Assembly (NCBI GenBank): GCA_964391975.1
Contig: CAYMNZ010000002.1
Location: forward strand, 12,708-76,707
DNA length: 64,000 bases
Direction: 5' to 3'
DNA from: an uncultured Candidatus Saccharibacteria bacterium
Lineage (GTDB): Bacteria > Patescibacteriota > Minisyncoccia > Phycocordibacterales > Phycocordibacteraceae
The position numbers and the translations under genes are program-made. Under the pieces are notes generated by a model that searched no databases, was not told where the DNA came from, and saw nothing but the letters and a program-made list of their open reading frames with translations. Of this stretch, positions 4,570 through 17,646 are shown piece after piece. Each line of letters starts with the position of its first letter. Position 1 is the stretch's first letter.

Positions 4570-5349
4570 TTAGGCCGTAGGAAGCCTGAAGGCCCTGAGT
4601 GCGTTCCCAAGTAGAGCCTCTCGCACCACCTCTTCATCTTCCCCTCGAATAGAAGCTACAGCCTTCACCACCTCCCTGACCGCCAGTGGGTCGTTCCGCT
4701 TCCCCCGGTTGGGTGCGGGCGCAACATAGGGAGCGTCAGTCTCGGAGAGAATATTCTCGAGCGGCAGGTACTTCACCACCTCATCGTAGTCGTGCGTGAA
4801 GGTCAGCACTGCGGTGAAGGAGAAGGTAAAGCCTAGTTCAAGAAACTTCTTCGTGGTCTCAACATCTCCTACGTAGAAATGCATGTTGCCCCGCACATTC
4901 TTTCCTTTGAGCATATCGATGGCATCGAGGTACGCATCCATGCTCCCTTTTGAAGGACGGGCATGAATCATGAGCGGCTTGTCAGTATCAAGCGCCAGCT
5001 GAATATGCTTATCAAACACTTCCTTCTGTCGCGTCTTCTCATTCTCCGGCTCTTCAGGGCGGAAGTAATCAAGCCCACACTCCCCTATCGCAACGACGTT
5101 CGGGTCTTCTGCGAGTTTCCGATAGTAGCTATCGTCGTAACCTTCGCGTGGCTTGTCGTTGGGATGCAAACCCACTGCAGCAAAGAGTGTCTTGCCGTCA
5201 GCGAGTTCTACTGCCCCCCGAGAGAGGGTACTGTCGGTGCCGACGATAAGTCCACCCACTTCTGCGTCTTTCATGGAAGCCAAGAGTTCAGTACGGTCTT
5301 CGTCGTACTGAGGGAATTGTATGTGGCAGTGTGCGTCGAAATACTTCAC
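4570..5349 (-). CDS. tatD: TatD-family metal-dependent deoxyribonuclease
   Basis: 259 aa. It begins MKYFDAHCHIQFP and contains GECGLDY, DAPYVAP and other TatD/YcfH hydrolase motifs. It is placed downstream of metG as in many bacteria. Confidence 0.85.
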   Translation of the reverse strand: MKYFDAHCHIQFPQYDEDRTELLASMKDAEVGGLIVGTDSTLSRGAVELADGKTLFAAVGLHPNDKPREGYDDSYYRKLAEDPNVVAIGECGLDYFRPEEPENEKTRQKEVFDKHIQLALDTDKPLMIHARPSKGSMDAYLDAIDMLKGKNVRGNMHFYVGDVETTKKFLELGFTFSFTAVLTFTHDYDEVVKYLPLENILSETDAPYVAPAPNRGKRNDPLAVREVVKAVASIRGEDEEVVREALLGNALRAFRLPTA

Positions 5350-6782
5350 GGAAGGCGCGGGAATAGGTTTTCGGGCTTTGTGTTCGTCTGTACCGCGGCC
5401 ATGATTGCGTTTGCAGTCGCTGGCATCAGCGGCGCCAGGTGCGCAGCAAGCTTCGCAAGGTGCACAACGAGTTTTGCAATAACAGCGCGCGCCTCTTCTG
5501 CAGTCGCCTCAACCTTAATCTTTTTGTACGGCTCCTCCGTTGTCATGTACTCGTCTCCCTTCGCAACATGCACGAAGATAAGGTCCACCGCCTCGTTGAA
5601 CTTGAACTCTTCGATAAGATTAGCGAAGGCTGGTTCTACTTCTATTTCATCGAGTGCGACTGGCGCCGATAGATGTTCCTCTGCAAGTTTCATCACGCGC
5701 GCGACCAGGTTCCCAAGTCCGTTCACTAAGTTCGCGGTGTACCACTCATCAAGGCGCTCCCAGGTAATGTCGGAATCTTCTACTGGGTGCACATGGCGGA
5801 GCAGCAAGTAGCGCGTCGCATCAGTCCCATACTTCTGCACGAGGTCGTAGGGATTGATGACGTTCCCCAAAGACTTGCTCATACGCTGACCTCCGGAGTT
5901 GATGAAGCCGTGATAGAAAACCTGGTCGGAGTTCTTTACGCCTGCCGAGAAAAGCATCGCCTGCCACATGAGTGACTGGAAGCGCACCTGGTCCTTCCCT
6001 GCCATCTGTAGCACATGCCCTCCCTCCCAGAATTTCTTGAAGTTTCCCTCTAGGTCCTCTGGCCAACCCAAGGTTGAGATGTAGCTGGTGAGCGCATCAA
6101 ACCAGACGTACATAACTTGGGAATCATCCCCTGGTACCGGCACGCCCCACGAAAGCCTGGCCTTCTCACGCGAGATACTGAAGTCCTCGAGACCCCCCTT
6201 CACAAAGGTGAGTGCCTCCTCGCGGCGCCATTCAGGAATGATGACGCTCGGGCGGCTTAGATAGGCCACGAGCCGCTCCTGGTAGTTAGAGAACTTAAAG
6301 AAGTAGTTCTCCTCGGAGATAGTCTCAGGAGTCAGCGAAGGATGGATGGTGCACTTTCCGTTCTCATCGAGCTCCTTCTCCGTCTTGTACGCCTCGCAGC
6401 CAACACAGTACAACCCTGAATAGGTCTTCTTGTAGATGTCACCTGCCGCATCACAGCGCCGCCACATCTCTTGTGCCGCTTTGTAATGAGATGGGTTCGT
6501 CGTGCGGATAAACGCGTCGTAGGAAAGGTCGAGTGCGCCTCCGAGTTTCTTGAACTCATCTGAGTAGTGGTCAACGTACGCGTGCACATCGGTTCCTGTC
6601 TTCTCTGCCGCCTGCAGTATCTTCTGACCGTGCTCGTCAGTACCTATATTGAAAAACACCTCCTCGCCCTTAAGGCGCAGGGTGCGTGCAAATGCATCAG
6701 CCTGGACAAATTCAAGTGCATTGCCGATGTGCGGGTCGGCATTCACGTACGGAAGTGTCGTCGTGAGGTAGCGTGAGCTCAT
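5346..6782 (-). CDS. metG: methionyl-tRNA synthetase, short form lacking the C-terminal tRNA-binding domain
   Basis: 478 aa. HIGH motif (PYVNADPHIGNA), KMSKS motif (RMSKSLGN) and the CxxC knuckle (CVGCEAY...C). There is a 4-nt overlap with tatD. Confidence 0.95.
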   Translation of the reverse strand: MSSRYLTTTLPYVNADPHIGNALEFVQADAFARTLRLKGEEVFFNIGTDEHGQKILQAAEKTGTDVHAYVDHYSDEFKKLGGALDLSYDAFIRTTNPSHYKAAQEMWRRCDAAGDIYKKTYSGLYCVGCEAYKTEKELDENGKCTIHPSLTPETISEENYFFKFSNYQERLVAYLSRPSVIIPEWRREEALTFVKGGLEDFSISREKARLSWGVPVPGDDSQVMYVWFDALTSYISTLGWPEDLEGNFKKFWEGGHVLQMAGKDQVRFQSLMWQAMLFSAGVKNSDQVFYHGFINSGGQRMSKSLGNVINPYDLVQKYGTDATRYLLLRHVHPVEDSDITWERLDEWYTANLVNGLGNLVARVMKLAEEHLSAPVALDEIEVEPAFANLIEEFKFNEAVDLIFVHVAKGDEYMTTEEPYKKIKVEATAEEARAVIAKLVVHLAKLAAHLAPLMPATANAIMAAVQTNTKPENLFPRLP

Positions 6783-6788
6783 TGAAAC

Positions 6789-7832
6789 TTACGCCTTCGC
6801 GCGCTTGCTCTTATCGAAGTCCATAAGAAACTCCTGGAACGCAGCAGCCACCGGCACCGAAAGAAGAACACCAAGGAACCCGGCGATATTGCCGCCCACG
6901 ATGATTGCGAGAATCACCATTAACGGAGGGAGACCGACGATCTTCTTCACCACGAGCGGGTAAATTAAGTTGGCCTGAAACAGGTTCATGATGAGGAAGA
7001 CTCCCGCGACGAGCACCATAAGAGTGACGCCGCCCGTTGAGAAACCAATGATGAGCGCAGGCACCGCTGCGATGAAGGAACCGAAGATAGGAATGAGTTC
7101 TGCAACAGCAGTCAGCGCAGCCAAGAGAAGCGCATAGGGCACGCCAAGGATAAGGAGCAGCAAATAGATGATGACGCCTGAGAGAAGCGAGAGAAGGAGT
7201 TGCCCCTGCATCCACTGCCCTATCTTCACGTGTGCGCGGCGCCAGAGGTTAAGCACATACGGCTCGTATTTCTGCGGGGTAACAATCTTAAGGAAGTCAT
7301 CAATGCCCGTCTCGCGGATGGCGAGATAGAAAGACAACACAATCACGAGGAGCAACGAGAAGATACCGCCGAAGAAGGAGGAGACAAGACGGAAGGCACC
7401 CTCTGAAGTGTCCGCGAATGCGGAGCGGAACGCGAAGATGGTATCGACAAGCGATGTCTGTCCTTCCGCTGCCTGCTCTGCTGCGACCGAAATAGAAGTA
7501 AGCGACGCTGGGAGGTCGAGTGTTTCAAGATACTGCGGAGCCGAAAGGAAGAACGCCTGCGTATCTTCCAAGAGTGGTGGGAGGAACACATAAACGATAC
7601 CGAAAAAGGACCCGAACAATAGAAGGTACATACCCAGAACCGCGAGCACGCGCGGAATCTTATATTTCATGAAAAAGGCCACGCCTGGCTCCACTGCCGA
7701 GGCAATCACAATGGCGGTCAGCACCAGAAGGGCGAGGTCTCGAAGGAACCACAGCAAATAGGCTGCAGTACAGATGAAGATAATCATCACTATCGTGCCC
7801 GGAGTGATGGAGACGTTTATCTGCTTATCCAT
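6789..7832 (-). CDS. AI-2E family transporter (UPF0118/PerM-like permease)
   Basis: 347 aa. The multi-TM profile and overall architecture are typical of AI-2E/YhhT permeases. Confidence 0.8.
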   Translation of the reverse strand: MDKQINVSITPGTIVMIIFICTAAYLLWFLRDLALLVLTAIVIASAVEPGVAFFMKYKIPRVLAVLGMYLLLFGSFFGIVYVFLPPLLEDTQAFFLSAPQYLETLDLPASLTSISVAAEQAAEGQTSLVDTIFAFRSAFADTSEGAFRLVSSFFGGIFSLLLVIVLSFYLAIRETGIDDFLKIVTPQKYEPYVLNLWRRAHVKIGQWMQGQLLLSLLSGVIIYLLLLILGVPYALLLAALTAVAELIPIFGSFIAAVPALIIGFSTGGVTLMVLVAGVFLIMNLFQANLIYPLVVKKIVGLPPLMVILAIIVGGNIAGFLGVLLSVPVAAAFQEFLMDFDKSKRAKA

Positions 7833-7868
7833 AGAGGAAATAGTAGCACAGTCCGTATTTTGAGGCGG

Positions 7869-8597
7869 TTAGAGCCACCGCTCGTTTTTGAACTCTCCTT
7901 CTTCCTGATGCCCAAGATTATTGAGCCTCTTGAGGAAAAGACGAGCTGATTCTTTGTACCGTTCGAAATCCTGACCGTCCCATTTTTGCTCAGTGGGAGC
8001 ATGAAATCCTCCAAAAATATCGAGGCCGAATGGCGAGCCTCCGTAATGAAATACGTTAATGAGCCGCTCGAGTATCATCATCTTTTCTTGTGCTGTCTCA
8101 GCTTTCCAGTAGGGATTTACAATGTCTTTCTCAACAATCTCTGTATTAAACATGTTCCCTTTCCATACCTGCAGATCCATGACTGGAGCAACCGCCTTCC
8201 AAAAACGATTGATGTACCCCTCGGTACTCTGGCTTATATTGTTGATGCCCCGTACGTTGATGTCTCGCTGAAGCATGAGGTGGAGGCGAATCAGTCCATA
8301 GGCATTCAGGCGCTGTCCTTCAAGCGCAGACTTAACGCGAGAAAAAGCTTCTTTCAAGGGCTCCGATGTCTTCCCTCCGTCCTCTGCCCTCAAATCGAGA
8401 TGGGATTTACTCCACCCCGTATCGTTGCTTTTTATCTTCGCAATCCAGGCAATCTCTTCTTTTGACGTAATACCGGCACTTTTCACGAGCCCCATATCTT
8501 CATTCCCAATAAAGGCCTCGGGGCTCAGCTTCGCCGCTACTGCAGCTAGCACTTCGTGATTGGGTTGTATGGCTTTAGGAATACCTTCCTTTTTCAT
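7869..8597 (-). CDS. hypothetical protein (locally low GC)
   Basis: 242-aa ORF with no recognisable motif. The nucleotide composition is visibly more AT-rich than the flanking genes. Confidence 0.5.
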   Translation of the reverse strand: MKKEGIPKAIQPNHEVLAAVAAKLSPEAFIGNEDMGLVKSAGITSKEEIAWIAKIKSNDTGWSKSHLDLRAEDGGKTSEPLKEAFSRVKSALEGQRLNAYGLIRLHLMLQRDINVRGINNISQSTEGYINRFWKAVAPVMDLQVWKGNMFNTEIVEKDIVNPYWKAETAQEKMMILERLINVFHYGGSPFGLDIFGGFHAPTEQKWDGQDFERYKESARLFLKRLNNLGHQEEGEFKNERWL

Positions 8598-8612
8598 ACA
8601 AGTGAAGAGACT

Positions 8613-9911
8613 CTAGAGCGCGGCGCGTAACTTCTCAACCACCGCCTCTACCGTTAGGCGCTCCTGCTCTCCCGTATTGCGGTCACGAACCGTGACTGTG
8701 CCGTCCTCGAGCGTATCGAAATCGATGGTGACACACCATGGCGTACCTATCTCATCCTGACGGCGATAGCGCTTACCAATGTTGCCGTTGTCGTCCCAGG
8801 CAATAGAAGGGTGCACCTTCCGTAGGGTCTCGCGCACTTCCCTCGCCTTGGCAACCAGCTCTGGCTTGTTCTTCAGAAGCGGAGAAACCATCGCCTTTAC
8901 CGGCGCAACCTTGGGTGCGAGCGCCAAGTACACACGCGTCTCTCCTCCAAGTTCGTCTTCGCGGTATGCAGAGGCGAGCACTGCAAGTACCGTGCGCCCG
9001 AGACCAAACGTCGGCTCAATCACGTGTGGGGTGAACTTCTCCTTCGTCTCCTCATCAAGATACGTGAGGTTCTCCCCGGACGCTTCCGCGTGGCGCGAAA
9101 GATCGTAGTCAGTGCGGTAAGCAAGACCATAGAGCTCTTTGCGTCCCATTGGGAAATCAAACTCGAAATCAATCGTGCGCTTAGAGTAATGCGCTCGGTC
9201 GTCAGCAGATACTTCAAGCTCGTGCACCGCATCCTTCTCAATACCCACTTCTTCAATCCACGCCCACATCTCTTTCCTCCAGTATTCAAAACGTTCCTCC
9301 CAGTCTGCTTCCTTGATGAAGTACTCGAACTCCATCAAATCGAATTCACGCACACGGAAGAGGAATTCGCGCGGTGCAATCTCGTTACGAAATGCCTTGC
9401 CGCTCTGCGCAATACCAAACGGCAGCTTCGGGTGGAAGGAATCGATAACGTTCTTAAAGTTTACAAACATTCCCTGTGCAATCTCGCCACGCAGGTAGCC
9501 GGTGGTCGTGCCGCCCTTTGCTGCTCCCATCTCAACCGGGAAGAGGAGGTTGAACTGCTTGGTAGCGCCGAGCTTCCCTCCACAATCTGGGCACTTCTCC
9601 CCTTCCACGTGGTCGGCACGGAAACGGTGCTTACACTTCTCACACTCAACCATTGGGTCGGTGAAGCCTTCAAGGTGGCCGGACGCCTTCCAGACTGCCT
9701 CCGGCATGACGATACTTGAATCGAGACCGTACATGTCGTCACGCGAGCTCACGAAGCGATTCCACCAGAGAGTCTCAATGTTTCTCTTGAGCGCAGCGCC
9801 CATCGGTCCGTAGTCGTACGTACCAGCAAGGCCTCCGTAAATCTCGGAACCCAGATAGACAAAGCCTCGGCGCTTGGCGAGGGCAACGAGCGTATCGAGT
9901 GAGACCTTCAT
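8613..9911 (-). CDS. glyQS: glycyl-tRNA synthetase (class II, alpha2 dimeric type)
   Basis: 432 aa. FVYLGSEIYGGLAGTYDYGPMG, the FRNEIAPR and GLAYRTDYDL class II motifs, and a C-terminal anticodon-binding domain. Confidence 0.9.
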   Translation of the reverse strand: MKVSLDTLVALAKRRGFVYLGSEIYGGLAGTYDYGPMGAALKRNIETLWWNRFVSSRDDMYGLDSSIVMPEAVWKASGHLEGFTDPMVECEKCKHRFRADHVEGEKCPDCGGKLGATKQFNLLFPVEMGAAKGGTTTGYLRGEIAQGMFVNFKNVIDSFHPKLPFGIAQSGKAFRNEIAPREFLFRVREFDLMEFEYFIKEADWEERFEYWRKEMWAWIEEVGIEKDAVHELEVSADDRAHYSKRTIDFEFDFPMGRKELYGLAYRTDYDLSRHAEASGENLTYLDEETKEKFTPHVIEPTFGLGRTVLAVLASAYREDELGGETRVYLALAPKVAPVKAMVSPLLKNKPELVAKAREVRETLRKVHPSIAWDDNGNIGKRYRRQDEIGTPWCVTIDFDTLEDGTVTVRDRNTGEQERLTVEAVVEKLRAAL

Positions 9912-9921
9912 ACCCCCGAGC

Positions 9922-11769
9922 TTACTTCACGCGCGCACCCGCGTCGATAGAGGGCGCGGTGGCGGTTACGGCTTCCTGAATATAGCGATCGAAGGCGGAG
10001 AGGGTCGGGCTGGTCACGATGACAGGACTTACCCCGACCTGCGAGAGGCTCGGGAGGAACGCAACCTCAAAGGAGGTTGAGCGAGGACTTGCGTGGGCCG
10101 CGAGGTCTCCAACGTTCCATGACAGCTCACGGGAAGTTGCGTTGTAAACGACCTCTGACCCACTCACGAAGCGGACATAGGACGGGAGCGTCGCCTTGGC
10201 TATAGCGCCAGCAACGGCATTGACCCCATTGCCAACCGAGAGAGTAACAACGTAGGAGGTCTCGACATCGGGGGTTGGTGGGTTGGGGCCGGCACTCCTG
10301 GAGGCGGTTGCGGTGAACGAGAGCTGACTTGCGACCTGGACGGTCCTTGAAAGCGTCGAAGTAATTTCCTCAGTCACACCCGTCTCCCCCACACGACGAC
10401 CAGCCACCGCCACGTTCACCGTAATGGAGGGATTGTGAAGCGTTGCAAGTTCGGCCGCAGATTTACTCGTGAACGTGAAGGAGCTCGCGCCACTATCACC
10501 CGGCTGCAGTGTGCGAAGTCCCGTGGTGGTATCTCGGTTGAAGACAATGGTCGTATCAGAAGAGCGGTAGAAGCCTCCACTGCTTGCAATTGATTTCTTA
10601 TCGAGCGCTGCACCGGAAAGATGAATTTCAATTTCGCCGTCGAGAATCTGCGTTGGAAGCGTGTTCTGCCAGGAGATGATGCCCTGCACTTCCGCTCCTG
10701 GCTTCACCGCAACCGAGTTCGCGTCACTACGATCAAGCGAGAGCGAGACTGCAATAAACGGACGCGTAATAGCAACGAGCGCCTCCTTCGTAATAAACGA
10801 GACGCTTAAGTCTCCCGAGCCGTCTGCCTTCGAGGTTCCGGCGGAGAAACGGAAGACGCGTTCGTCCTTATCTTGGCCGCCCAGGATGCCGCGTATAGAA
10901 ATGGTGCGCTGTTCGCCCGGCTGCAGTGTTCCAATCTTAAAGAGTGTATTGCCTACCGATGCCTGGGAGGCCCCAGTGAATGAGAACCCGAATGGGTATT
11001 CAGCGGTGATTGCGAGATTATCAATGGCTGCCGGTGCATTCGAACGTATCGTGATATCAAACGTCATCTCCTGGCCGGAGGAAACTTCAGAAAGCGCATC
11101 GACATTCACTGATACTGGCGATGTCCCGATAGTGAAGTCAAAGGATTCTTTCTTCTCGAACACCGCGTTTGAGCCTTCGGTGCGGTACTCAAGCGTCATT
11201 GGTATGGTGATGCCTTGATTCGCCTCCCCAAAGAGCGTGGCGCGTACGGTGCGCTTCACACTCTCACCTGGACCGATGGTCCCGATAGCAACTGCTTCAT
11301 GCGAGAGCGGCTGCGGGTCCTTATCTGCCGAGTACGTGCCATCGGGGAAATCAACGAGGAGTCTCGCATCAGTCAGTGTTGCCGGGTTCTCATTCTTGAT
11401 AACCAAGAACAGCGAGACCGTGTCTCCTCCAGCAATAGAGGTGGGAGGATTCTCAATCGTAATCTTTACGCGCTCGTTTGAGACAGAGCGTCCGCCCTGC
11501 ACCACGAGGAAGAACGCGACGATAAGCGCTATGAGAAAGAACCCCGCAGCACCCATAAGAAAGAGCGCGGAACGGGAGAGCCCCGGACGCTCTGGCCCCT
11601 GGGGTGCCTGCGGCTTCCCTGCTTCCTTGGTCCAGCCATGGGGCACTTTAGAGCCCTTCGCGGAAAGCGAGGAGGGATGTATATCAAACGAGGTCCCTGG
11701 GGAGTACAGCCGCTTTCGCGTCTCCTCAAGCGGCCCAGTGTCTTCTTGCGCGCCTGGCATGATACACAA
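9922..11769 (-). CDS. large membrane-anchored surface protein with repeated beta-rich (CARDB/DUF11-like) segments
   Basis: 615 aa. A single N-terminal TM helix (FLMGAAGFFLIALIVAFFLVV) is followed by a long Ser/Thr/Gly/Val-rich extracellular region with a recurring pattern. Confidence 0.55.
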   Translation of the reverse strand: MCIMPGAQEDTGPLEETRKRLYSPGTSFDIHPSSLSAKGSKVPHGWTKEAGKPQAPQGPERPGLSRSALFLMGAAGFFLIALIVAFFLVVQGGRSVSNERVKITIENPPTSIAGGDTVSLFLVIKNENPATLTDARLLVDFPDGTYSADKDPQPLSHEAVAIGTIGPGESVKRTVRATLFGEANQGITIPMTLEYRTEGSNAVFEKKESFDFTIGTSPVSVNVDALSEVSSGQEMTFDITIRSNAPAAIDNLAITAEYPFGFSFTGASQASVGNTLFKIGTLQPGEQRTISIRGILGGQDKDERVFRFSAGTSKADGSGDLSVSFITKEALVAITRPFIAVSLSLDRSDANSVAVKPGAEVQGIISWQNTLPTQILDGEIEIHLSGAALDKKSIASSGGFYRSSDTTIVFNRDTTTGLRTLQPGDSGASSFTFTSKSAAELATLHNPSITVNVAVAGRRVGETGVTEEITSTLSRTVQVASQLSFTATASRSAGPNPPTPDVETSYVVTLSVGNGVNAVAGAIAKATLPSYVRFVSGSEVVYNATSRELSWNVGDLAAHASPRSTSFEVAFLPSLSQVGVSPVIVTSPTLSAFDRYIQEAVTATAPSIDAGARVK

Positions 11770-11778
11770 AAGTATACC

Positions 11779-12312
11779 TTACAGACCGGAAGCAGCGATG
11801 CCCTGATTGATGCGTGCGATAATCTGCTTCCGATTCCCTTCAATGGAAGCTGGCACCTCTCCAGCATCAAGCCCGAGCGCGTTCACAATCCGGAGCGCGG
11901 CTAGGCACTCTGCGGCATCCTGTTTCTCCTCGTTCTCATCCTTAAGCGCGATGAGTAAATCGCGGAAGGCCCGAAAGAGTTCTGGCTCCTTTGTTTCCCC
12001 GTGAACAAGCCGCAAAAGGAGGAGCGAGATGCGCCCCGCTCGCACTCGCGCTGCAGGAGGCAGCTCTGTGAAGTGGTCTTCCACAAGCGAGGCACCTGAA
12101 AGGCGCCATCCTTCTTTTCCGTAGAGCAAGCTCGCGTCGAGCTCTGAGAGGGTCCGGAGCGCATGCGAGAGCTTTGCTCCTGATTTGCGCACTCCCTGCG
12201 CACGTGCACGAAGCAAACCAAAGTCTGCGGTGAGGAGTGTCACGAGCGCACTCGCCTCCCCGATAGACGTACGGGAGAGGACAATGGCCGGCGTGACGTA
12301 GTTAGGACGCAT
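11779..12312 (-). CDS. recO: DNA repair protein RecO (short form)
   Basis: MRPNYVTPAIVLSRTSIGEASALVTLLTADFGLL resembles the RecO N-terminal OB fold. The start at 12312 lies 10 nt after the ileS stop. The longer listed ORF would overlap ileS by about 150 nt. Confidence 0.6.
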   Translation of the reverse strand: MRPNYVTPAIVLSRTSIGEASALVTLLTADFGLLRARAQGVRKSGAKLSHALRTLSELDASLLYGKEGWRLSGASLVEDHFTELPPAARVRAGRISLLLLRLVHGETKEPELFRAFRDLLIALKDENEEKQDAAECLAALRIVNALGLDAGEVPASIEGNRKQIIARINQGIAASGL

Positions 12313-15300
12313 CGCGCGTAAGAGAGAAAGAAACGGGACCCGTTGAAAGCTCGGCGGTGTGAGGGCCACTTCCCTTAACCACTGAAACAGTATCGCGCGG
12401 TGAAAAGCCGGCGGTCTTGCGCGCTTCGGCGACCGCGCGGGCAAAGGCACGTTCATCCCCCTCCTGTACGAGTTCTGGGGTGAGCACCGTATCGAGCTTC
12501 ACCTCCGTTCCAACGACAATGTTTTTCACGTTCACTTCGTCAGCGACAATTGCTGAGAGCGCAGGTGATAGTGCTTCAGTGACCGTAAGCGTTGCAAGCG
12601 GCTGTCGCACTTTGATGTTCGCCTTCTGGCGAAGCATGAGTGCTTCGGAGGCAACCGCGCGGACCTTCTGCATATCAGCAATCAGCGCGTCCTCTTTGCG
12701 AGAGCCGAAGAACGGTTTCTTGATTTCCGGCCAGGAAGCCAAGTGCACACTCTCTGGGTCGTTGTCCTTCTTTACGTTCCTATAGAGTTCCTCTGCAACG
12801 AATGGCATTGCCGGAGCGATGACCTTGGAGAGCTCAAGAAGCACATGACGAAGCGTGCGGAGTGCTGCCTGCTTGTCTGCCTCATCCTCTCCCTTCATGC
12901 GGTCACGAGAACGCCTCAAGTACCAAGTCGAAAGGTCATCAATAAACTCGCGGTACGGGCGCACGGCACGCGGAACATCGTAGCGTTCAAGCGCGTCTGT
13001 TGCGTCCTCAATTACCTGCGTAAGGCGCGCGAGTATCCAGCGATCAAGTGGGTGCGTGCTCTTCCCCTCCCCTTCCTTAAGATCCTGCTTGAAGAGCAGA
13101 TAGAACGACAGCACATTGCGCAGCATGTTCACGACGCGCGCGTGCACATCCTTCACGTCTTCATCGCGGAACATGAGATCCTCTGCCTGCATCACGGGGC
13201 TTGAAAGCATGTAGTAGCGGAAGGCGTCAGCACCATACTGATCAAAGAGCGCGTACGGGTCCGTGTAGTTATTCTTGCTCTTAGAGAGCTTCGCACCATC
13301 CTTGGCCACCACGTTTCCGGTCGTGATGACGTTCTTGAAAGATTGGCGCCCGAAGATAGAGACGGAGATGGCGTGCATGTAATAGAACCATGCGCGCGTC
13401 TGACCAATGTACTCGGACACAAAGTCGCCCGGAGCTCGTTTTTCAAATTCCTTTTGGTTCTCGAACGGATAGTGGTATTCCGCAAACGGCATGGAGCCTG
13501 ACTCTACCCAACAGTCCACGACTTCTGGTGTGCGAGTAAGCGGCTCGCCGTCCTTCTCAAGCACTACGCGATCAAGGTATGGGAGATGGAAGTCGAGCTC
13601 GTAGTTGCGATTGTGCGGCAGCGGTACGAAGTTAAGCGGCACCATCTTTCCGCGCTCGGGGTACGGAATATCGACAATCTCCTTCGCTGTTGCCCCTCGC
13701 ACGATGCCATAGAGCATCCAGAGCGGCTCGCCGTGCGAGACGATGAGTATCTTCTTGTCTTTGTACTTCTCCTCAAGCGAGTAGAGGAAATCTCCCACAC
13801 GCTTCCTGAGGTCGTTAAGAGACTCCCCTCCTTCAGGCCCCTTCTCGAAGCGGGCGAGGTTGCTTTCTTTCGTATCCGGGAAGTGTTTGTGGAACTCGAT
13901 GAGCGTCTGTCCGTTAAGGAACCCGTGATTGTATTCCGAGAGTGCAGCATCAACGACGACCTGTTCAGGCTTGCAGCCGATGGCTTTCACGACAATCTCC
14001 GTGGTCTCGCGCGTGCGCACAAATGGAGAGGTAATAACGACATCGATATCGCACTTCTTGAGTTCCTCCGCAGCTTTGGCTACCTGTGCCTTCCCTTGCT
14101 CCGTGAGGTGTACAGGCTCCGTAGGGTCAGCGCTTATGCGACTCTCCACATTGCTGTCGGCTTCTCCGTGTCGGAGCGAGTAGTACGTATTCCCGCTCTT
14201 CTTCGTGAGCTGCTTGAGCTCATCAAGAGAACCGACCACTGTGACCTCCCCTTTCGGACTCTTCCATATAGGAAGCGGAGACGCCCAGAAACGATTGCGA
14301 GAAATGGTCCAATCAGGGGCACCTTCAAGAATGTGCTTGAAGCGTCCGTGCTTAAGATGCTCAGGCACCCACGTAATCTTCTCGTTCTCTGAAAGGAGCT
14401 TCTGCTTCACGTCTTGTATGTTGATGAACCAGGAAGACACCGCGTTGTAGATGAGCGCTGTACCACAGCGGTAACAGTGCGGGTAGGAGTGCGTATTCAT
14501 CGCACGCGCAAACATGAGGCCGCGCTTCTCAAGGTCTTCCTTTATAAGTGGTTCTGCCTTCTTGATGTACTGGCCGTGTACAAACTCAGGTGCGTCCGTG
14601 TTGTACGTACCGTTGGGGTTCAAGAGTGGGATCATCGGGAGTCCTTCCTTGAGACCGAGCGCGTAGTCATCTTCTCCGTATATGACGGCGGTGTGCACGA
14701 CGCCAGTACCGTCAGTGGTCGTGACAAAGTCTGCTGGGAGCACCATCCACTTCTTTCCTGTGTGTGCCGCTGCCTTCGCTATGGTGTAGAGCGGCTCGTA
14801 CTCAATGCCCACAAGTTCCTTCCCCACGAACTCCTTTGCCGGATTCGAAAGTCCAAGCGTCTCAGCACGCTCCTTTGCTGCAACAAGCGATACGCCGTCC
14901 TTCTCGTAGAGTGCGTATGAAATCTCCGGCCCCACCGCAAGTCCGACGTTCCCGGGAAGTGTCCACGGCGTCGTGGTCCACGCGAGTATATAGGTGTTCT
15001 CCGGAAGTCCGTGTTTCTCCGGATTCCTCACCTTGAACTTCACTGTTACCGCTTCCTCGGTAAGGTCCTTGTACGTGTTGTCCATCGCAATCTCTGCTTT
15101 GGCGAGTGGTGTCTCGCAGTGCGGACAGTACATAAGCACCTTCCTACCCTCATAGAGGCGGTTCTTCTTATGTATCTCCTTAAGTCCCCACCACACACTT
15201 TCGATGAAGCTGTTGTCCATCGTCTTGTAGGAGTTGTCGAAGTCGACGAAGCGTCCAAGGCGCTCAATGTAGCGCTTCCACTCATGCACATAATCAAGCA

Positions 15301-15667
15301 CCATCGAGCGAGCCGTCTCATTGAACGTCTCGATACCTATGGAAAGAATCTCTTTTTTGTTCTTGAGTCCAAGCTTCTTCTCCACGAGAGATTCAATCGG
15401 GAGACCGTGCGTGTCCCACCCCCAGCGCCTGCGTACCCTGTATCCGCGCATGGTCTTGTAGCGCGGGATGAAGTCCTTGGCGACCGAGGAGAGCAGCGAG
15501 CCTTGGTGCGGGAGACCAGTAGCGAACGGAGGACCATCATAGAAGGTGAACTCGCCTTTGGGGGCGGGCTTCTCAAGCGACTTCTCGAAAATCTGCTGCT
15601 CCTTCCAAAACGCGAGAACCTCTTCCTCGCGCGTGGCGACGTCTGTTTTAGCCGTAGTTTCAGCCAT
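12302..15667 (-). CDS. ileS: isoleucyl-tRNA synthetase (type 2) with an inserted histidine-phosphatase domain
   Basis: 1121 aa. HIGH-region (PPFATGLPHQGS), KMSKS variant (KLSKSKNN) and the CP1 editing region are present. Residues ~494-660 (nt ~13688-14188) have histidine-phosphatase motifs (LRHGEADSN, SPFVRTRETTE, LIVSHGEPLW) and are inserted between DWTISRNRFW and DCWVESGSMPF. Confidence 0.92.
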   Translation of the reverse strand: MAETTAKTDVATREEEVLAFWKEQQIFEKSLEKPAPKGEFTFYDGPPFATGLPHQGSLLSSVAKDFIPRYKTMRGYRVRRRWGWDTHGLPIESLVEKKLGLKNKKEILSIGIETFNETARSMVLDYVHEWKRYIERLGRFVDFDNSYKTMDNSFIESVWWGLKEIHKKNRLYEGRKVLMYCPHCETPLAKAEIAMDNTYKDLTEEAVTVKFKVRNPEKHGLPENTYILAWTTTPWTLPGNVGLAVGPEISYALYEKDGVSLVAAKERAETLGLSNPAKEFVGKELVGIEYEPLYTIAKAAAHTGKKWMVLPADFVTTTDGTGVVHTAVIYGEDDYALGLKEGLPMIPLLNPNGTYNTDAPEFVHGQYIKKAEPLIKEDLEKRGLMFARAMNTHSYPHCYRCGTALIYNAVSSWFINIQDVKQKLLSENEKITWVPEHLKHGRFKHILEGAPDWTISRNRFWASPLPIWKSPKGEVTVVGSLDELKQLTKKSGNTYYSLRHGEADSNVESRISADPTEPVHLTEQGKAQVAKAAEELKKCDIDVVITSPFVRTRETTEIVVKAIGCKPEQVVVDAALSEYNHGFLNGQTLIEFHKHFPDTKESNLARFEKGPEGGESLNDLRKRVGDFLYSLEEKYKDKKILIVSHGEPLWMLYGIVRGATAKEIVDIPYPERGKMVPLNFVPLPHNRNYELDFHLPYLDRVVLEKDGEPLTRTPEVVDCWVESGSMPFAEYHYPFENQKEFEKRAPGDFVSEYIGQTRAWFYYMHAISVSIFGRQSFKNVITTGNVVAKDGAKLSKSKNNYTDPYALFDQYGADAFRYYMLSSPVMQAEDLMFRDEDVKDVHARVVNMLRNVLSFYLLFKQDLKEGEGKSTHPLDRWILARLTQVIEDATDALERYDVPRAVRPYREFIDDLSTWYLRRSRDRMKGEDEADKQAALRTLRHVLLELSKVIAPAMPFVAEELYRNVKKDNDPESVHLASWPEIKKPFFGSRKEDALIADMQKVRAVASEALMLRQKANIKVRQPLATLTVTEALSPALSAIVADEVNVKNIVVGTEVKLDTVLTPELVQEGDERAFARAVAEARKTAGFSPRDTVSVVKGSGPHTAELSTGPVSFSLTRDAS

Positions 15668-15708
15668 AATCCTCCATCCTATCGTAGGGGGAAGGATTCC
15701 CCAAAAAC

Positions 15709-15987
15709 CTAGTTATCGATATGGGTGACGATGCGACCAGCGTCAGGCTTCCCGTGTCCCTGTATGACATGTACTTTCTGGTCGTGACTTGAATCCTTCA
15801 ACGCTCTAGTTACAGCCTCGCGGAGTTCGAGCTCGTTAGTGACTACGTACTGACGTGCATTACCGTGCTCGCCCCACGGCGCAATCAAAATCGGGTAGGC
15901 TGCCTTTTTGTCGGCAATCAACTGAAGAACCCCTTCCGCGTTCGTAGCGGAAAGCTGCTGAGGAAGTTGTTCGCCGCTCTGTTCCAT
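15709..15987 (-). CDS. hypothetical small protein
   Basis: 92-aa ORF in the same orientation between argS and ileS. No recognisable family. Confidence 0.4.
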   Translation of the reverse strand: MEQSGEQLPQQLSATNAEGVLQLIADKKAAYPILIAPWGEHGNARQYVVTNELELREAVTRALKDSSHDQKVHVIQGHGKPDAGRIVTHIDN

Positions 15988-15999
15988 ATGTAAACGATA

Positions 16000-17646
16000 C
16001 TACATCTTCGCTGGCGTCGGAATGGCAAGAAGCCAGAGACCATTCTCCATCGTGGTGACGAACGCACGGGCAACAAGCAGCTTGTACGCCTCATGCTCCC
16101 CGCCAAGGATGCGGTTGGCTGCATAGAAAGAGTTCCACTCCCCTGCCAGTTGCGTAAGGTACTGCGCCACATGATGTGGAGCGCGTTCGCGTTCAGCACG
16201 TGCAGCAACTTCTGGGAAGCGCGTAATCAGGCGCTCGATAAGATACGGCTCTGCTGGTGCGTCCTTCGCGTCTCCATCGTTACCCGCGGTCGCAAGAATC
16301 GACTTTGCGCGCACCATCGCGTACTGCAGATACGGACCTGAATCCCCCTCTAGAGAAAGGGACTTCTCAGGATCGAAGATTATGTTCGAACCGAGTGCCT
16401 GGCGGAGAATTGGATACTTAATCGCACCAAGCGCTACCTGCTCAGCAACAATCGGATCCTCGCTCTTTTCGGACACCTGCTCGATAAGATCGTTGATGAA
16501 CGTTCGTGCGGTCACCACGTTCCCTTCGCGCGACGACATCTTGCCCGACGGAAGCTTCAACATGCCGTGCGCAAGGTGCGAGGTCTTCTCGCCAAGAGCC
16601 GGGGCTACCTCTTTGAGCGCCTCGAGCACGACCATGAAGTGCCCGACCTGTTCAGTTGCAGTAACGATGATGGAAACATCTGCGGGCCAGCGCTCTTCTT
16701 TAAGGAAGGCGAGTCCAATCTCTTTCGTCTCGTAGGTGGGCGTACCCTGTGACGTGATGAACACACGAGTGTGCTTCCCCTTTTTCTCTCCCTTGTACAC
16801 GATGGCACCATCGCTTTCTTCGAAGACACCGTTCTCGAGATTCTTGCGCACGATGTCGAGACCGATAGGAGCAGTCTCACTTTCAAAGAAGTAGTAGTCG
16901 AACTTTGTGCCGAGCACTTTGTAGATTTCCTCAAACGCTGCAAGCGATACTTCCCTGCCCTTGCGCCAGAGTTCTGCGAGTTCCCGGTCTTCATTCTTGT
17001 AGATAGCCCGGTTGAGCGCATCTATCTCCGCTTTCGCATCAGGACTCTCTTCGTACGCTTTCGCTCCGTGGGTGTATGCCTTCCCGATGTCAGTAGCGTT
17101 TGCGGGCTCCAGGTTCCCAACCTTCTGCAACCCCCAAAGACACTTAGCCACGTGCGGGCCAACGTCTCCTTCGTAGTTCACATGCGAGACGGTAGCACCG
17201 GAGAATTCAATCAAGCGCGCGACTGATTCCCCAATCGCGTTACTCATGAGGTGCCCAATGTGCATCTCCTTAAATGGATTCGGGTCCGTGTACTCCATCA
17301 TCACGCGCACTCCCTCGTTTGCGGTTCCGCGCCCCCAGTCTTTTCCTGTTGCGCGTAGAATCTCGCTCGTGATGACACTCCGTGCGAGTGTGACGTTAAT
17401 GAATCCAGGTCCTGCAACCGTGACGCTCGTGACCTCCTCTTTGAGGGCCTTCGTGATGCCTGAAGCGATAGTGTCAGCAACTTCCTTAGGGTTCTTCCCC
17501 AGAATCTTGGCCACCACCAGGGCGGCGTTTATGGCGTAGTCGCCGTGAGAGTGGTCAGCTGGGCGCTCTACGGCGAAGGCAACATCGGGAGCTCCGATAT
17601 CTGCCAGTGCCGCCGCTACGACGTCCCTAATGCGAGTTTCCATCAA
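16000..17646 (-). CDS. argS: arginyl-tRNA synthetase
   Basis: 548 aa. It has the N-terminal Arg-tRNA binding region, the HIGH motif (PNPFKEMHIGHLMS) and the C-terminal DALR anticodon-binding region. Confidence 0.9.
   Translation of the reverse strand: MMETRIRDVVAAALADIGAPDVAFAVERPADHSHGDYAINAALVVAKILGKNPKEVADTIASGITKALKEEVTSVTVAGPGFINVTLARSVITSEILRATGKDWGRGTANEGVRVMMEYTDPNPFKEMHIGHLMSNAIGESVARLIEFSGATVSHVNYEGDVGPHVAKCLWGLQKVGNLEPANATDIGKAYTHGAKAYEESPDAKAEIDALNRAIYKNEDRELAELWRKGREVSLAAFEEIYKVLGTKFDYYFFESETAPIGLDIVRKNLENGVFEESDGAIVYKGEKKGKHTRVFITSQGTPTYETKEIGLAFLKEERWPADVSIIVTATEQVGHFMVVLEALKEVAPALGEKTSHLAHGMLKLPSGKMSSREGNVVTARTFINDLIEQVSEKSEDPIVAEQVALGAIKYPILRQALGSNIIFDPEKSLSLEGDSGPYLQYAMVRAKSILATAGNDGDAKDAPAEPYLIERLITRFPEVAARAERERAPHHVAQYLTQLAGEWNSFYAANRILGGEHEAYKLLVARAFVTTMENGLWLLAIPTPAKM

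What the first reader, a model, noticed from the sequence alone, without database searches (positions are those of the whole stretch)
13600..14200. Complete histidine-phosphatase (PGAM-like) domain inserted inside the isoleucyl-tRNA synthetase catalytic core
Insertion boundaries:
- Canonical IleRS has roughly 45-75 residues between the conserved DWxISRxR(Y/F)W element and the downstream (D/E)(V/C)(F/W)(D/E)SGSMP element.
- Here about 265 residues separate DWTISRNRFW (aa ~453) and DCWVESGSMPF (aa ~718).
- The extra ~190 aa (aa ~494-660) carry the three histidine-phosphatase hallmarks in correct order and spacing: the RHG motif (YYSLRHGEADSN), the second Arg region (ITSPFVRTRETTE) and the C-terminal catalytic His (LIVSHGEPLW).
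- The reading frame is continuous in the ORF track (1121 aa).
- The flanking IleRS segments resume with canonical sequence (LDFHLPYLDRV...).

So this looks like a clean domain insertion with apparently intact catalytic residues. It does not look like an intein, a frameshift or two genes. A phosphatase embedded in an aaRS could act on a nucleotide, on phosphorylated tRNA ends, or on an alarmone such as Ap4A that aaRSs generate. I am not aware of a described IleRS with this architecture.
Basis: partly seen in the sequence, partly recalled or inferred. Interest (0 to 1): 0.8.

Follow-up and report, generated by a model that had tools for sequence, protein, structure and literature searches.

The report
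Phosphatase domain nested inside isoleucyl-tRNA synthetase
An apparently intact phosphatase enzyme is built into the middle of the enzyme that loads isoleucine onto tRNA in a large group of tiny uncultured bacteria; related bacteria encode the same phosphatase as a separate gene right in front of that enzyme's gene, so the two seem to work together in a way I found no description of.

Summary

It is not an artefact. All 120 closest homologues, all Patescibacteria (CPR), carry it. R499, H500, R551, E578 and H645 are invariant, although the rest of the insert evolves fast.

New findings:
- The closest free-standing relatives (about 190 aa) are always encoded directly upstream of an insert-less ileS, in the same argS-ileS-recO gene order as the window. 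This held in 47 of 47 informative metagenome loci; 28 further loci had the embedded form.
- Some IleRS carry two copies, in tandem or at other sites.
- ValRS of Gracilibacteria and Peregrinibacteria carries 1-4 copies at the same CP3 site.

I conclude that this is a dedicated, probably active phosphatase partner of IleRS. The substrate is unknown. I lean towards a phosphorylated tRNA end or nucleotide at the active-site entrance, but this is inference. I found no published description.

The parts
12302..15667 (-). Complete gene for the 1121-aa type-2 isoleucyl-tRNA synthetase with the nested phosphatase (stop codon TAA at 12302-12304)
   Evidence: ORF list; TIGR00392 ileS 814.8 bits; best structural matches are IleRS2 and eukaryote-type IleRS
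14204..15667 (-). IleRS N-terminal part, aa 1-488: first half of the Rossmann fold, CP1 editing domain, CP2, and the first half of CP3
   Evidence: Aligns to 1ILE residues 12-480; editing motif TTTPWTLPGN at aa 231-240
15497..15508 (-). HIGH signature, here HQGS (fourth His replaced by Ser)
   Evidence: HxGS in 53 of 59 close homologues
14276..14314 (-). DWTISRNRFWASP motif (aa 452-464), the CP2-CP3 linker; in yeast IleRS this linker lines the pocket where the tRNA CCA end binds
   Evidence: PMC7955072
13598..14203 (-). The insert, aa 489-690: histidine-phosphatase domain with short linkers, nested in CP3
13667..14176 (-). Pfam His_Phos_1 (PF00300) match, aa 498-667
14165..14173 (-). RHG motif (R499, nucleophile H500, G501)
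   Evidence: Invariant in 59 homologues; 271 of 280 domain copies
14015..14017 (-). R551, second phosphate-binding arginine (SPFVRTRET)
   Evidence: Invariant
13934..13936 (-). E578, predicted general acid
   Evidence: Invariant in A1; Glu or Asp in 278 of 280 copies
13733..13735 (-). H645, second catalytic histidine (IVSHGE)
   Evidence: Invariant
12305..13597 (-). IleRS C-terminal part, aa 691-1121: second half of CP3, second half of the Rossmann fold (DCWVESGSMPF at 13484-13516; KLSKS at 13277-13291), anticodon-binding and C-terminal domains
   Evidence: Aligns to 1ILE residues 488-819; Anticodon_1 and DUF5915
16000..17646 (-). Arginyl-tRNA synthetase gene directly upstream. In lineages with a free-standing phosphatase, that gene lies between argS and ileS
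   Evidence: Pfam; synteny
11779..12456 (-). recO directly downstream, part of the conserved argS-ileS-recO-...-class II aaRS gene order shared with the comparison loci

Best explanation
The segment is a folded histidine phosphatase of the small PhoE / phosphoserine-phosphatase type, with every catalytic residue in place. It is nested in a loop of the CP3 subdomain of an otherwise complete type-2 IleRS.

It is the fused form of a dedicated IleRS partner. In sister Patescibacteria lineages the same phosphatase is a separate gene of about 190 aa that abuts the start of an insert-less ileS (argS-phosphatase-ileS-recO). In this lineage the domain sits inside IleRS, in the same gene order.

Shown here:
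- the domain identity and fold;
- the exact insertion point;
- strict conservation of R499, H500, R551, E578 and H645 against a fast-evolving background;
- that the separate and embedded states are alternatives in every locus examined;
- repeated duplication and re-insertion;
- the same CP3 insertion in ValRS.

Inferred:
- The domain is an active phosphomonoesterase working through a phospho-His500 intermediate.
- What matters is being tethered to, or produced in step with, the synthetase, not an exact geometry.
- Its substrate is a phosphate-bearing species met at the synthetase. Because CP3 springs from the linker that lines the tRNA CCA-end pocket, my favoured candidate is a 2'/3'-phosphorylated tRNA end or a nucleoside phosphate at the mouth of the synthetic site, removed so that charging can proceed.

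I put about 0.85 on 'dedicated, catalytically active IleRS partner' and only about 0.25 on that specific substrate class.
For: Domain identity and fold.

Insertion point inside CP3.

Not an artefact: all 120 best homologues (62-96% identity over full length, plus one 100%-identical fragment; Patescibacteria, Paceibacterota, Kaiserbacteria and others) carry PF00300 together with PF00133. In the species-genome survey, 39 loci have the insert and 40 IleRS from other phyla and some CPR lineages lack it.

Selection on catalysis: the pentad is invariant in 59 sequences, while mean column conservation is 0.56 in the insert against 0.84 in the flanks. RHR(E/D)H is intact in 265 of 280 domain copies, and nearly all of the remaining 15 are truncated fragments.

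Partnership:
- Free-standing homologues P0132, P0145 and P0141 lie next to argS and/or ileS.
- Of 80 metagenome loci, 47 have a separate ORF directly upstream of an insert-less ileS (44 clusters at 90% identity), 28 have the embedded form, 5 are uninformative, and none has a free-standing copy elsewhere.
- Independent gene calls give argS, His_Phos (191-193 aa), ileS (957-964 aa, no PF00300), recO.
- The window shows the same gene order.

Tethering rather than geometry:
- Tandem pairs at site A in Peregrinibacteria.
- Extra copies after aa ~745 and between aa ~861 and ~871.
- The copies are old (30-50% identical to each other) yet each keeps the pentad.

Same site in a paralogue: 71 of 120 ValRS relatives carry 1-4 copies between DWxISRQ and the next Rossmann motif.
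Against: - No substrate is identified and no biochemistry exists.
- By fold, the nearest relatives are metabolic small-molecule phosphatases (PSP1, GpgP, PhoE, CobC), not enzymes that act on nucleic acid or protein.
- The embedded domains are slightly acidic (mean net charge -2.6), and the substrate-cap region is poorly conserved.
- In ValRS about a third of copies have lost the general-acid Glu, and nine have also lost the second His. So at least there the domain can persist without full catalytic machinery.
- Some CPR lineages have neither the insert nor the adjacent gene, so the function is dispensable or replaceable.
- I could not read the model's coordinates, so I never measured how the phosphatase pocket is oriented relative to the synthetic site.
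Confidence: 0.6

Rival explanations
1. The phosphatase is an ordinary metabolic enzyme (for example a phosphoserine, sugar-phosphate or cofactor-phosphate phosphatase). It merely rides on ileS for expression. The fusion reflects genome compaction and CP3 being a tolerant loop, not a shared function.
For: The closest folds are metabolic phosphatases. The protein is viable as a separate polypeptide. Insertion at several sites suggests no geometric requirement. Some CPR lack it altogether.
Against: - Linkage was 47 of 47 across 24 clusters at 70% identity.
- Repeated independent fusions are always to class Ia synthetases: IleRS at three sites, ValRS at the same CP3 site, and one C-terminal ArgRS fusion.
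- Extra copies are retained with intact pentads.
- Scores fall far below the cut-offs of every characterised NCBIfam equivalog: dPGM 74 against 225, CobC 73.5 against 162.9, PspA 71.8 against 350.
- The substrate cap is poorly conserved, which is unusual for a specific metabolic enzyme.
Confidence: 0.17
2. The domain is mainly a non-catalytic module. It would serve as a phosphate- or ligand-binding sensor, or as a structural extension of CP3, modulating IleRS or contacting tRNA or another partner. Turnover would be incidental.
For: ValRS-embedded copies often lack the general acid, and sometimes the second His, while keeping the RH...R phosphate-binding residues. Multi-copy arrays resemble scaffold repeats. 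L043 has a non-phosphatase insert at the same site.
Against: In IleRS-linked copies, including every copy of the multi-domain proteins, the full pentad with the general acid is conserved. That is not needed for binding alone. The free-standing forms keep it too.
Confidence: 0.13
3. It is a protein phosphatase, as SixA, PGAM5 and Sts are, that keeps IleRS or a neighbouring translation component dephosphorylated, for example against a kinase toxin of the HipA type.
Against: It is structurally and by sequence closer to small-molecule phosphatases. No kinase is conserved in the neighbourhood. No phosphosite is known.
Confidence: 0.07
4. Artefact: an assembly chimera, a frameshifted pair of genes, an intein or a mobile insertion.
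For: None beyond prior suspicion. One related locus (L030) does show IleRS split into two ORFs at the start of the insert.
Against: - The ORF is continuous and composition is uniform.
- Independent assemblies give identical or near-identical proteins.
- The architecture is conserved over hundreds of divergent sequences.
- No Pfam match to an intein or endonuclease.
- The domain is predicted to fold as an excursion from a well-folded CP3.
Confidence: 0.01

Closest known systems
Type-2 (eukaryote-like) IleRS, e.g. Priestia megaterium IleRS2 (8C8U/8C8V), T. thermophilus IleRS (1ILE), yeast and Candida IleRS (7D5C, 6LDK)
   Same: The whole synthetase body matches: Rossmann fold, CP1 editing domain with TTTPWTLPxN, CP2, CP3, KMSKS (KLSKS), anticodon-binding and C-terminal domains.
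   Different: About 200 extra residues inside CP3. The CP3 zinc cysteines are lost in this clade. The HIGH motif reads HQGS.
Small broad-specificity histidine phosphatases: H. thermophilus phosphoserine phosphatase PSP1 (4IJ5), Geobacillus PhoE (1H2E/1EBB), mycobacterial glucosyl-3-phosphoglycerate phosphatase (6S2Q), CobC (6E4B)
   Different: Only 20-26% identical. Below every NCBIfam equivalog cut-off. Never free in this lineage: it is nested in a synthetase, or elsewhere encoded directly upstream of ileS.
Mycobacterial bifunctional RNase H / acid phosphatase (Rv2228c/RnhC type; NCBIfam PRK07238)
   Same: It is the best NCBIfam phosphatase hit for the insert (100.6 bits). It is a precedent for a CobC/PhoE-like histidine phosphatase fused to a nucleic-acid enzyme; from memory, the logic of that fusion is also unclear.
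   Different: That is an end-to-end fusion, not a nested one, and the partner enzyme differs. The score is far below the cut-off (326).
Other accessory domains on class I synthetases: IleRS with an N-acetyltransferase domain (NCBIfam NF040702), CP1 editing domains, the leucine-specific domain of LeuRS
   Same: The general theme is the same: functional modules inserted into or appended to the class Ia catalytic domain.
   Different: None of them is a phosphatase. The window protein does not match the GNAT-containing family (329 bits against a cut-off of 1999).

Membership tests
Isoleucyl-tRNA synthetase (TIGR00392 ileS equivalog) | Whole-protein HMM score above the curated cut-off | tested here: met
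   814.8 bits against a cut-off of 621.4, matched in two stretches on either side of the insert
Isoleucyl-tRNA synthetase | Class I signature motifs HIGH and KMSKS | tested here: inconclusive
   KLSKS is present and conserved. HIGH reads HQGS: H54 and G56 are invariant, but the fourth position is Ser in 53 of 59 homologues. The effect on activity is unknown.
Isoleucyl-tRNA synthetase | CP1 editing domain with the threonine-rich motif | tested here: met
   WTTTPWTLPGN at aa 230-240 is invariant. Isolated CP1 structures match at E 1e-26 to 1e-32.
Type-2 (eukaryote-like) IleRS | Closer to IleRS2, eukaryotic and Thermus enzymes than to type-1 bacterial IleRS; DUF5915-type C-terminus instead of the bacterial zinc-binding domain | tested here: met
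   1ILE, yeast and P. megaterium IleRS2 at E 1e-190 or better, against type-1 (8C9E, 1FFY) at E 1e-92 to 1e-99; Foldseek ranking agrees; weak DUF5915 hit
Mupirocin-resistance IleRS MupA/MupB | Score above the curated exception cut-off | tested here: not met
   631 and 602 bits against a cut-off of 1900
Histidine phosphatase superfamily, branch 1 (PF00300) | HMM score above the gathering threshold | tested here: met
   120 bits in context and 124 bits excised, against 21.7
Histidine phosphatase superfamily, branch 1 | Catalytic set: RHG nucleophile His, two Arg, general-acid Glu, second His | tested here: met
   R499, H500, R551, E578 and H645 are all present and invariant
Histidine phosphatase superfamily, branch 1 | Alpha/beta fold of the family | tested here: met
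Histidine phosphatase superfamily, branch 1 | Phosphatase or mutase activity | not testable with these tools
   Needs an enzyme assay
Cofactor-dependent phosphoglycerate mutase (dPGM) | Equivalog HMM cut-off | tested here: not met
   dPGM_arch 74.4 against 225; GpmB 66 against 261; PRK01295 47.6 against 316
Alpha-ribazole phosphatase CobC | Equivalog HMM cut-off | tested here: not met
   TIGR03162 73.5 against 162.9
Phosphoserine phosphatase PspA / PSP1 | Equivalog HMM cut-off | tested here: not met
   NF045917 71.8 against 350; PRK13463 57.7 against 277. It is nevertheless the nearest solved fold.
Intein | Hint or endonuclease domain, and an insertion that interrupts a conserved host motif | tested here: not met
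   No such Pfam family at E <= 0.01. The insert is a phosphatase in a surface loop of CP3.
IleRS with N-acetyltransferase domain (NF040702) | Exception HMM cut-off | tested here: not met
   329 bits against 1999

The most novel reading that the evidence does not exclude
In a large part of the Candidate Phyla Radiation, charging of tRNA by class Ia synthetases (IleRS, and ValRS in other lineages) is coupled to an obligatory dephosphorylation step. One possibility is removal of a 2'/3'-phosphate, cyclic phosphate or pyrophosphate from the tRNA CCA end, that is, repair or anti-toxin activity built into the synthetase. Another is destruction of a phosphorylated inhibitor or by-product at the active-site entrance. 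Either would be a synthetase accessory activity in a class with editing, and I found no description of one.
Probability: 0.2. Interest if true: 0.9.

Novelty: new variant of a known kind. Interest (0 to 1): 0.75.

Why it matters
Aminoacyl-tRNA synthetases are among the best-studied enzymes. Their accessory domains (editing, tRNA-binding, signalling) have each opened a field.

Here a complete enzyme of a different chemistry is nested in the catalytic domain of an essential synthetase across a very large bacterial radiation. Three independent lines tie it to the synthetase:
- an alternative form as a separate gene abutting ileS;
- repeated duplication;
- convergent insertion at the same site in ValRS.

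That points to an unrecognised requirement in tRNA charging, or in its protection, in ultra-small symbiotic bacteria whose biology is largely unknown. It is directly testable with recombinant protein.

It also has practical consequences. NCBI annotation pipelines name these proteins only 'class I tRNA ligase family protein'. The free-standing partner is annotated as a generic 'histidine phosphatase family protein' or 'PhoE'.

Tried and rejected
- **Artefact, chimera or intein:** rejected on continuity, composition and conservation.
- **dPGM, CobC, PspA or SixA identity:** rejected, because all scores are below the curated cut-offs.
- **Link between the HxGS variant of HIGH and the insert:** not supported. 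Among the loci where my motif pattern found it (well under half), divergent insert-bearing IleRS mostly have HxGH (20 of 23). The first regex was too strict and many loci were not scored.
- **RNA elements or a T-box in the argS-ileS spacer:** Rfam found only tRNAs in the window, and the promoter/terminator scan showed nothing notable.
- **Measuring distances in the AlphaFold model:** not possible, because coordinates are not exposed.
- **First metagenome scan with a 26-sequence alignment:** failed for lack of a conserved stretch. It was redone with 10 sequences.
- **L043's 199-aa spacing at the same site as a decayed phosphatase:** not significant (score -2.3, E 0.16).
- **Direction of evolution (fusion or fission):** rough NJ trees of IleRS bodies interleave the embedded, separate and absent states, with 8-10 parsimony changes in 30 bootstraps. 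These trees are too weak to decide. One group of separate-gene loci was missed by my motif filter.
- **A free-standing phosphatase next to an insert-less valS:** not seen in the one locus examined.
- **Literature:** nine full-text searches found no description of the architecture.
Full report
**1. The observation**

The minus-strand ORF at window 12302-15667 is continuous and encodes 1121 aa. Pfam finds the class I synthetase catalytic domain split in two (E 2e-121). His_Phos_1 lies at aa 498-667 (E 1.3e-34), followed by the anticodon-binding domain. NCBIfam identifies the protein as IleRS, above the curated equivalog cut-off (814.8 against 621.4 bits).

Alignment to T. thermophilus IleRS places query residue 488 opposite residue 480, and query 691 opposite 488. 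About 200 residues therefore replace a linker of about 7. The excised segment (window 13598-14203) is by itself a strong His_Phos_1 match.

Base composition and GC3 are uniform across the junctions.

**2. It is real and widespread**

- All 120 best database homologues carry both PF00133 and PF00300. They are 62-96% identical over full length (1106-1193 aa), plus one 814-aa fragment that is 100% identical over the 73% of the query it covers.
- Where these homologues are named, they come from Patescibacteria, Paceibacterota, Parcubacteria, Kaiserbacteria or Pacebacteria.
- I surveyed one genome per species and measured the distance between the DWxISRxR motif and the next Rossmann motif.
- That distance is 68-97 aa in IleRS of other phyla and of some CPR lineages, with no phosphatase.
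- It is 244-286 aa with one phosphatase in Paceibacteria-type genomes.
- It is about 450 aa with two tandem phosphatases in Peregrinibacteria and Peribacteria.

**3. Where it sits**

Structural papers define CP3 as residues 473-534 in Candida IleRS and 459-526 in yeast IleRS (PMC7191050; PMC7955072). The Thermus CP3 holds a zinc motif.

The insertion point maps to the middle of CP3. Divergent insert-bearing relatives keep CxxC pairs on both sides of the insert, while the window's clade has lost them.

In yeast, the DWxxSRxRxWG linker that leads into CP3 forms part of the pocket where the tRNA CCA end binds. So the phosphatase hangs from a subdomain rooted at the mouth of the synthetic site. 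I could not measure the actual geometry, because the model's coordinates are not exposed.

**4. Is it an enzyme?**

- AlphaFold models the insert at pLDDT 90-97.
- Protein phosphatases score lower: SixA 15.9 and PGAM5 14.3.
- R499, H500, R551, E578 and H645 are invariant in 59 homologues, although the insert is the least conserved part of the protein (0.56 against 0.84 mean column conservation).
- Over 280 domain copies, 265 keep RHR(E/D)H, and nearly all of the rest are truncated fragments.
- It falls below every curated cut-off for dPGM, CobC, PspA and the other named families. It is therefore a histidine phosphatase of unassigned specificity.

**5. The key new evidence: a dedicated partner**

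- The closest free-standing relatives of the insert are about 190 aa and 35-46% identical to it. In every informative case they are encoded next to synthetase genes.
- A metagenome scan returned 80 loci.
- In 47 loci, a separate phosphatase ORF lies directly upstream of ileS on the same strand, with a projected spacing of -54 to +121 nt, usually between argS and ileS. That IleRS lacks the insert.
- In 28 loci the phosphatase is inside IleRS. Five loci were too short to tell. No locus had a free-standing copy anywhere else.
- The 47 loci form 44 clusters at 90% identity and 24 at 70%.
- Independent gene calls on long contigs show argS, His_Phos (191-193 aa), ileS (957-964 aa, no PF00300), recO and a class II synthetase. 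This is the same gene order as the window.
- The 1121-aa window protein is roughly the length of such an IleRS plus the phosphatase.
- Non-CPR loci show no phosphatase near ileS, and a few CPR lineages have neither form.

**6. Variants**

- Some IleRS carry a second copy after the position equivalent to window aa ~745.
- Others carry one between aa ~861 and ~871.
- Others have tandem copies at the CP3 site.
- Copies within one protein are only 30-50% identical, yet each keeps the pentad. In Peregrinibacteria the first and second copies form separate orthologous series, so the duplication is old and both copies are maintained.
- The four-copy protein P0123 is a ValRS.
- Among its 120 best relatives, mostly Gracilibacteria and Peregrinibacteria, 71 carry one to four copies between DWxISRQ and the next Rossmann motif. 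This is the same CP3 position.
- In ValRS, however, about a third of copies have lost the general-acid Glu, and nine have also lost the second His. I confirmed this by eye.
- One representative is an ArgRS with a C-terminal phosphatase.

**7. Interpretation**

The separate and embedded forms were alternatives in every locus I could classify. Together with the tight packing against ileS, the repeated fusions to class Ia synthetases and the conservation of catalytic residues, this argues that the phosphatase is a functional partner of IleRS. It does not look like a random passenger. The variety of sites and copy numbers argues that proximity or stoichiometry matters more than a fixed orientation.

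What it dephosphorylates is not shown. I favour a phosphate-bearing tRNA end or nucleotide at the active-site entrance, at about 0.25, because of where CP3 is rooted and because the hosts are tRNA enzymes.

Three observations cut the other way:
- the nearest folds are metabolic phosphatases;
- the embedded domains are mildly acidic and the substrate cap is variable;
- the degenerate ValRS copies show that a non-catalytic role is possible.

**8. Novelty**

Nine full-text searches found no description of an IleRS or ValRS with a histidine-phosphatase domain, or of the operon form. That library covers only open-access papers and preprints.

Databases label the proteins 'class I tRNA ligase family protein' or 'isoleucyl-tRNA synthetase', and the free-standing form 'histidine phosphatase family protein' or 'PhoE'. 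None of the 50 top-ranked solved structures in the Foldseek search is annotated as anything other than a plain IleRS, ValRS or LeuRS.

I rate this a new variant of a known kind: synthetases with accessory domains. If the coupling to charging is real, it could turn out to be more than that.

Noticed in passing
window 15497-15508 (-), IleRS aa 54-57: The class I HIGH signature reads HQGS. The fourth position is Ser in 53 of 59 close homologues and His in 6. Among more distant insert-bearing IleRS loci where the motif could be located, most have HxGH, so the change looks clade-specific and unrelated to the insert.
   Followed up: partly
P0123 and P0390-P0507 (proteins): ValRS of Gracilibacteria and Peregrinibacteria carries 1-4 histidine-phosphatase domains at the CP3-equivalent site (71 of 120 relatives). 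A few have an extra copy upstream of the DW motif. About a third of the copies have lost the general-acid Glu, and nine read RHR(S/A)N.
   Followed up: partly
P0235 (689 aa): The non-phosphatase part matches ArgRS best, and the phosphatase is at the C-terminus (residues 505-672). This looks like an argS-phosphatase fusion of the two adjacent genes, or a missed stop codon.
   Followed up: no
L043:1195-5040 (MAG 'bacterium isolate GLR2_GL5_UP_2_concoct_31'): This IleRS has a 199-aa spacing at the same CP3 site, and the phosphatase profile does not match the extra sequence significantly (score -2.3, E 0.16). It also has an extra segment of about 120 aa in the N-terminal part.
   Followed up: partly
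L030:1699-5176 (Candidatus Yanofskybacteria RIFOXYD1_FULL_42_10): IleRS is broken into two overlapping ORFs (516 and 653 aa) right at the start of the phosphatase insert. This could be a frameshift, an assembly error or a genuine split gene.
   Followed up: no
window 5346-17646: Four synthetase genes lie within 12 kb: MetRS at 5346-6782, a class II aaRS at 8613-9911, IleRS, and ArgRS at 16000-17646. The order argS-ileS-recO-(large surface-type protein, here DUF11 at 9922-11769)-class II aaRS is conserved across many CPR contigs.
   Followed up: partly
window 12302-12456: As mechanically listed, the IleRS ORF and the recO ORF overlap by 155 nt. The RecO_N match starts only at residue 49 of that ORF, so the real recO start is probably further downstream.
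   Followed up: no
L081:2682-5609: The insert-less IleRS next to the free-standing phosphatase P0132 was called as two genes (412 and 554 aa), although blastx aligns it almost continuously to the window IleRS. Here the phosphatase is convergent with ileS rather than upstream of it.
   Followed up: no
P0245 (450 aa) and P0170 (387 aa): These proteins contain phosphatase domains of this subfamily (two in P0245) but have no detectable synthetase part. They may be fragments or another architecture.
   Followed up: no
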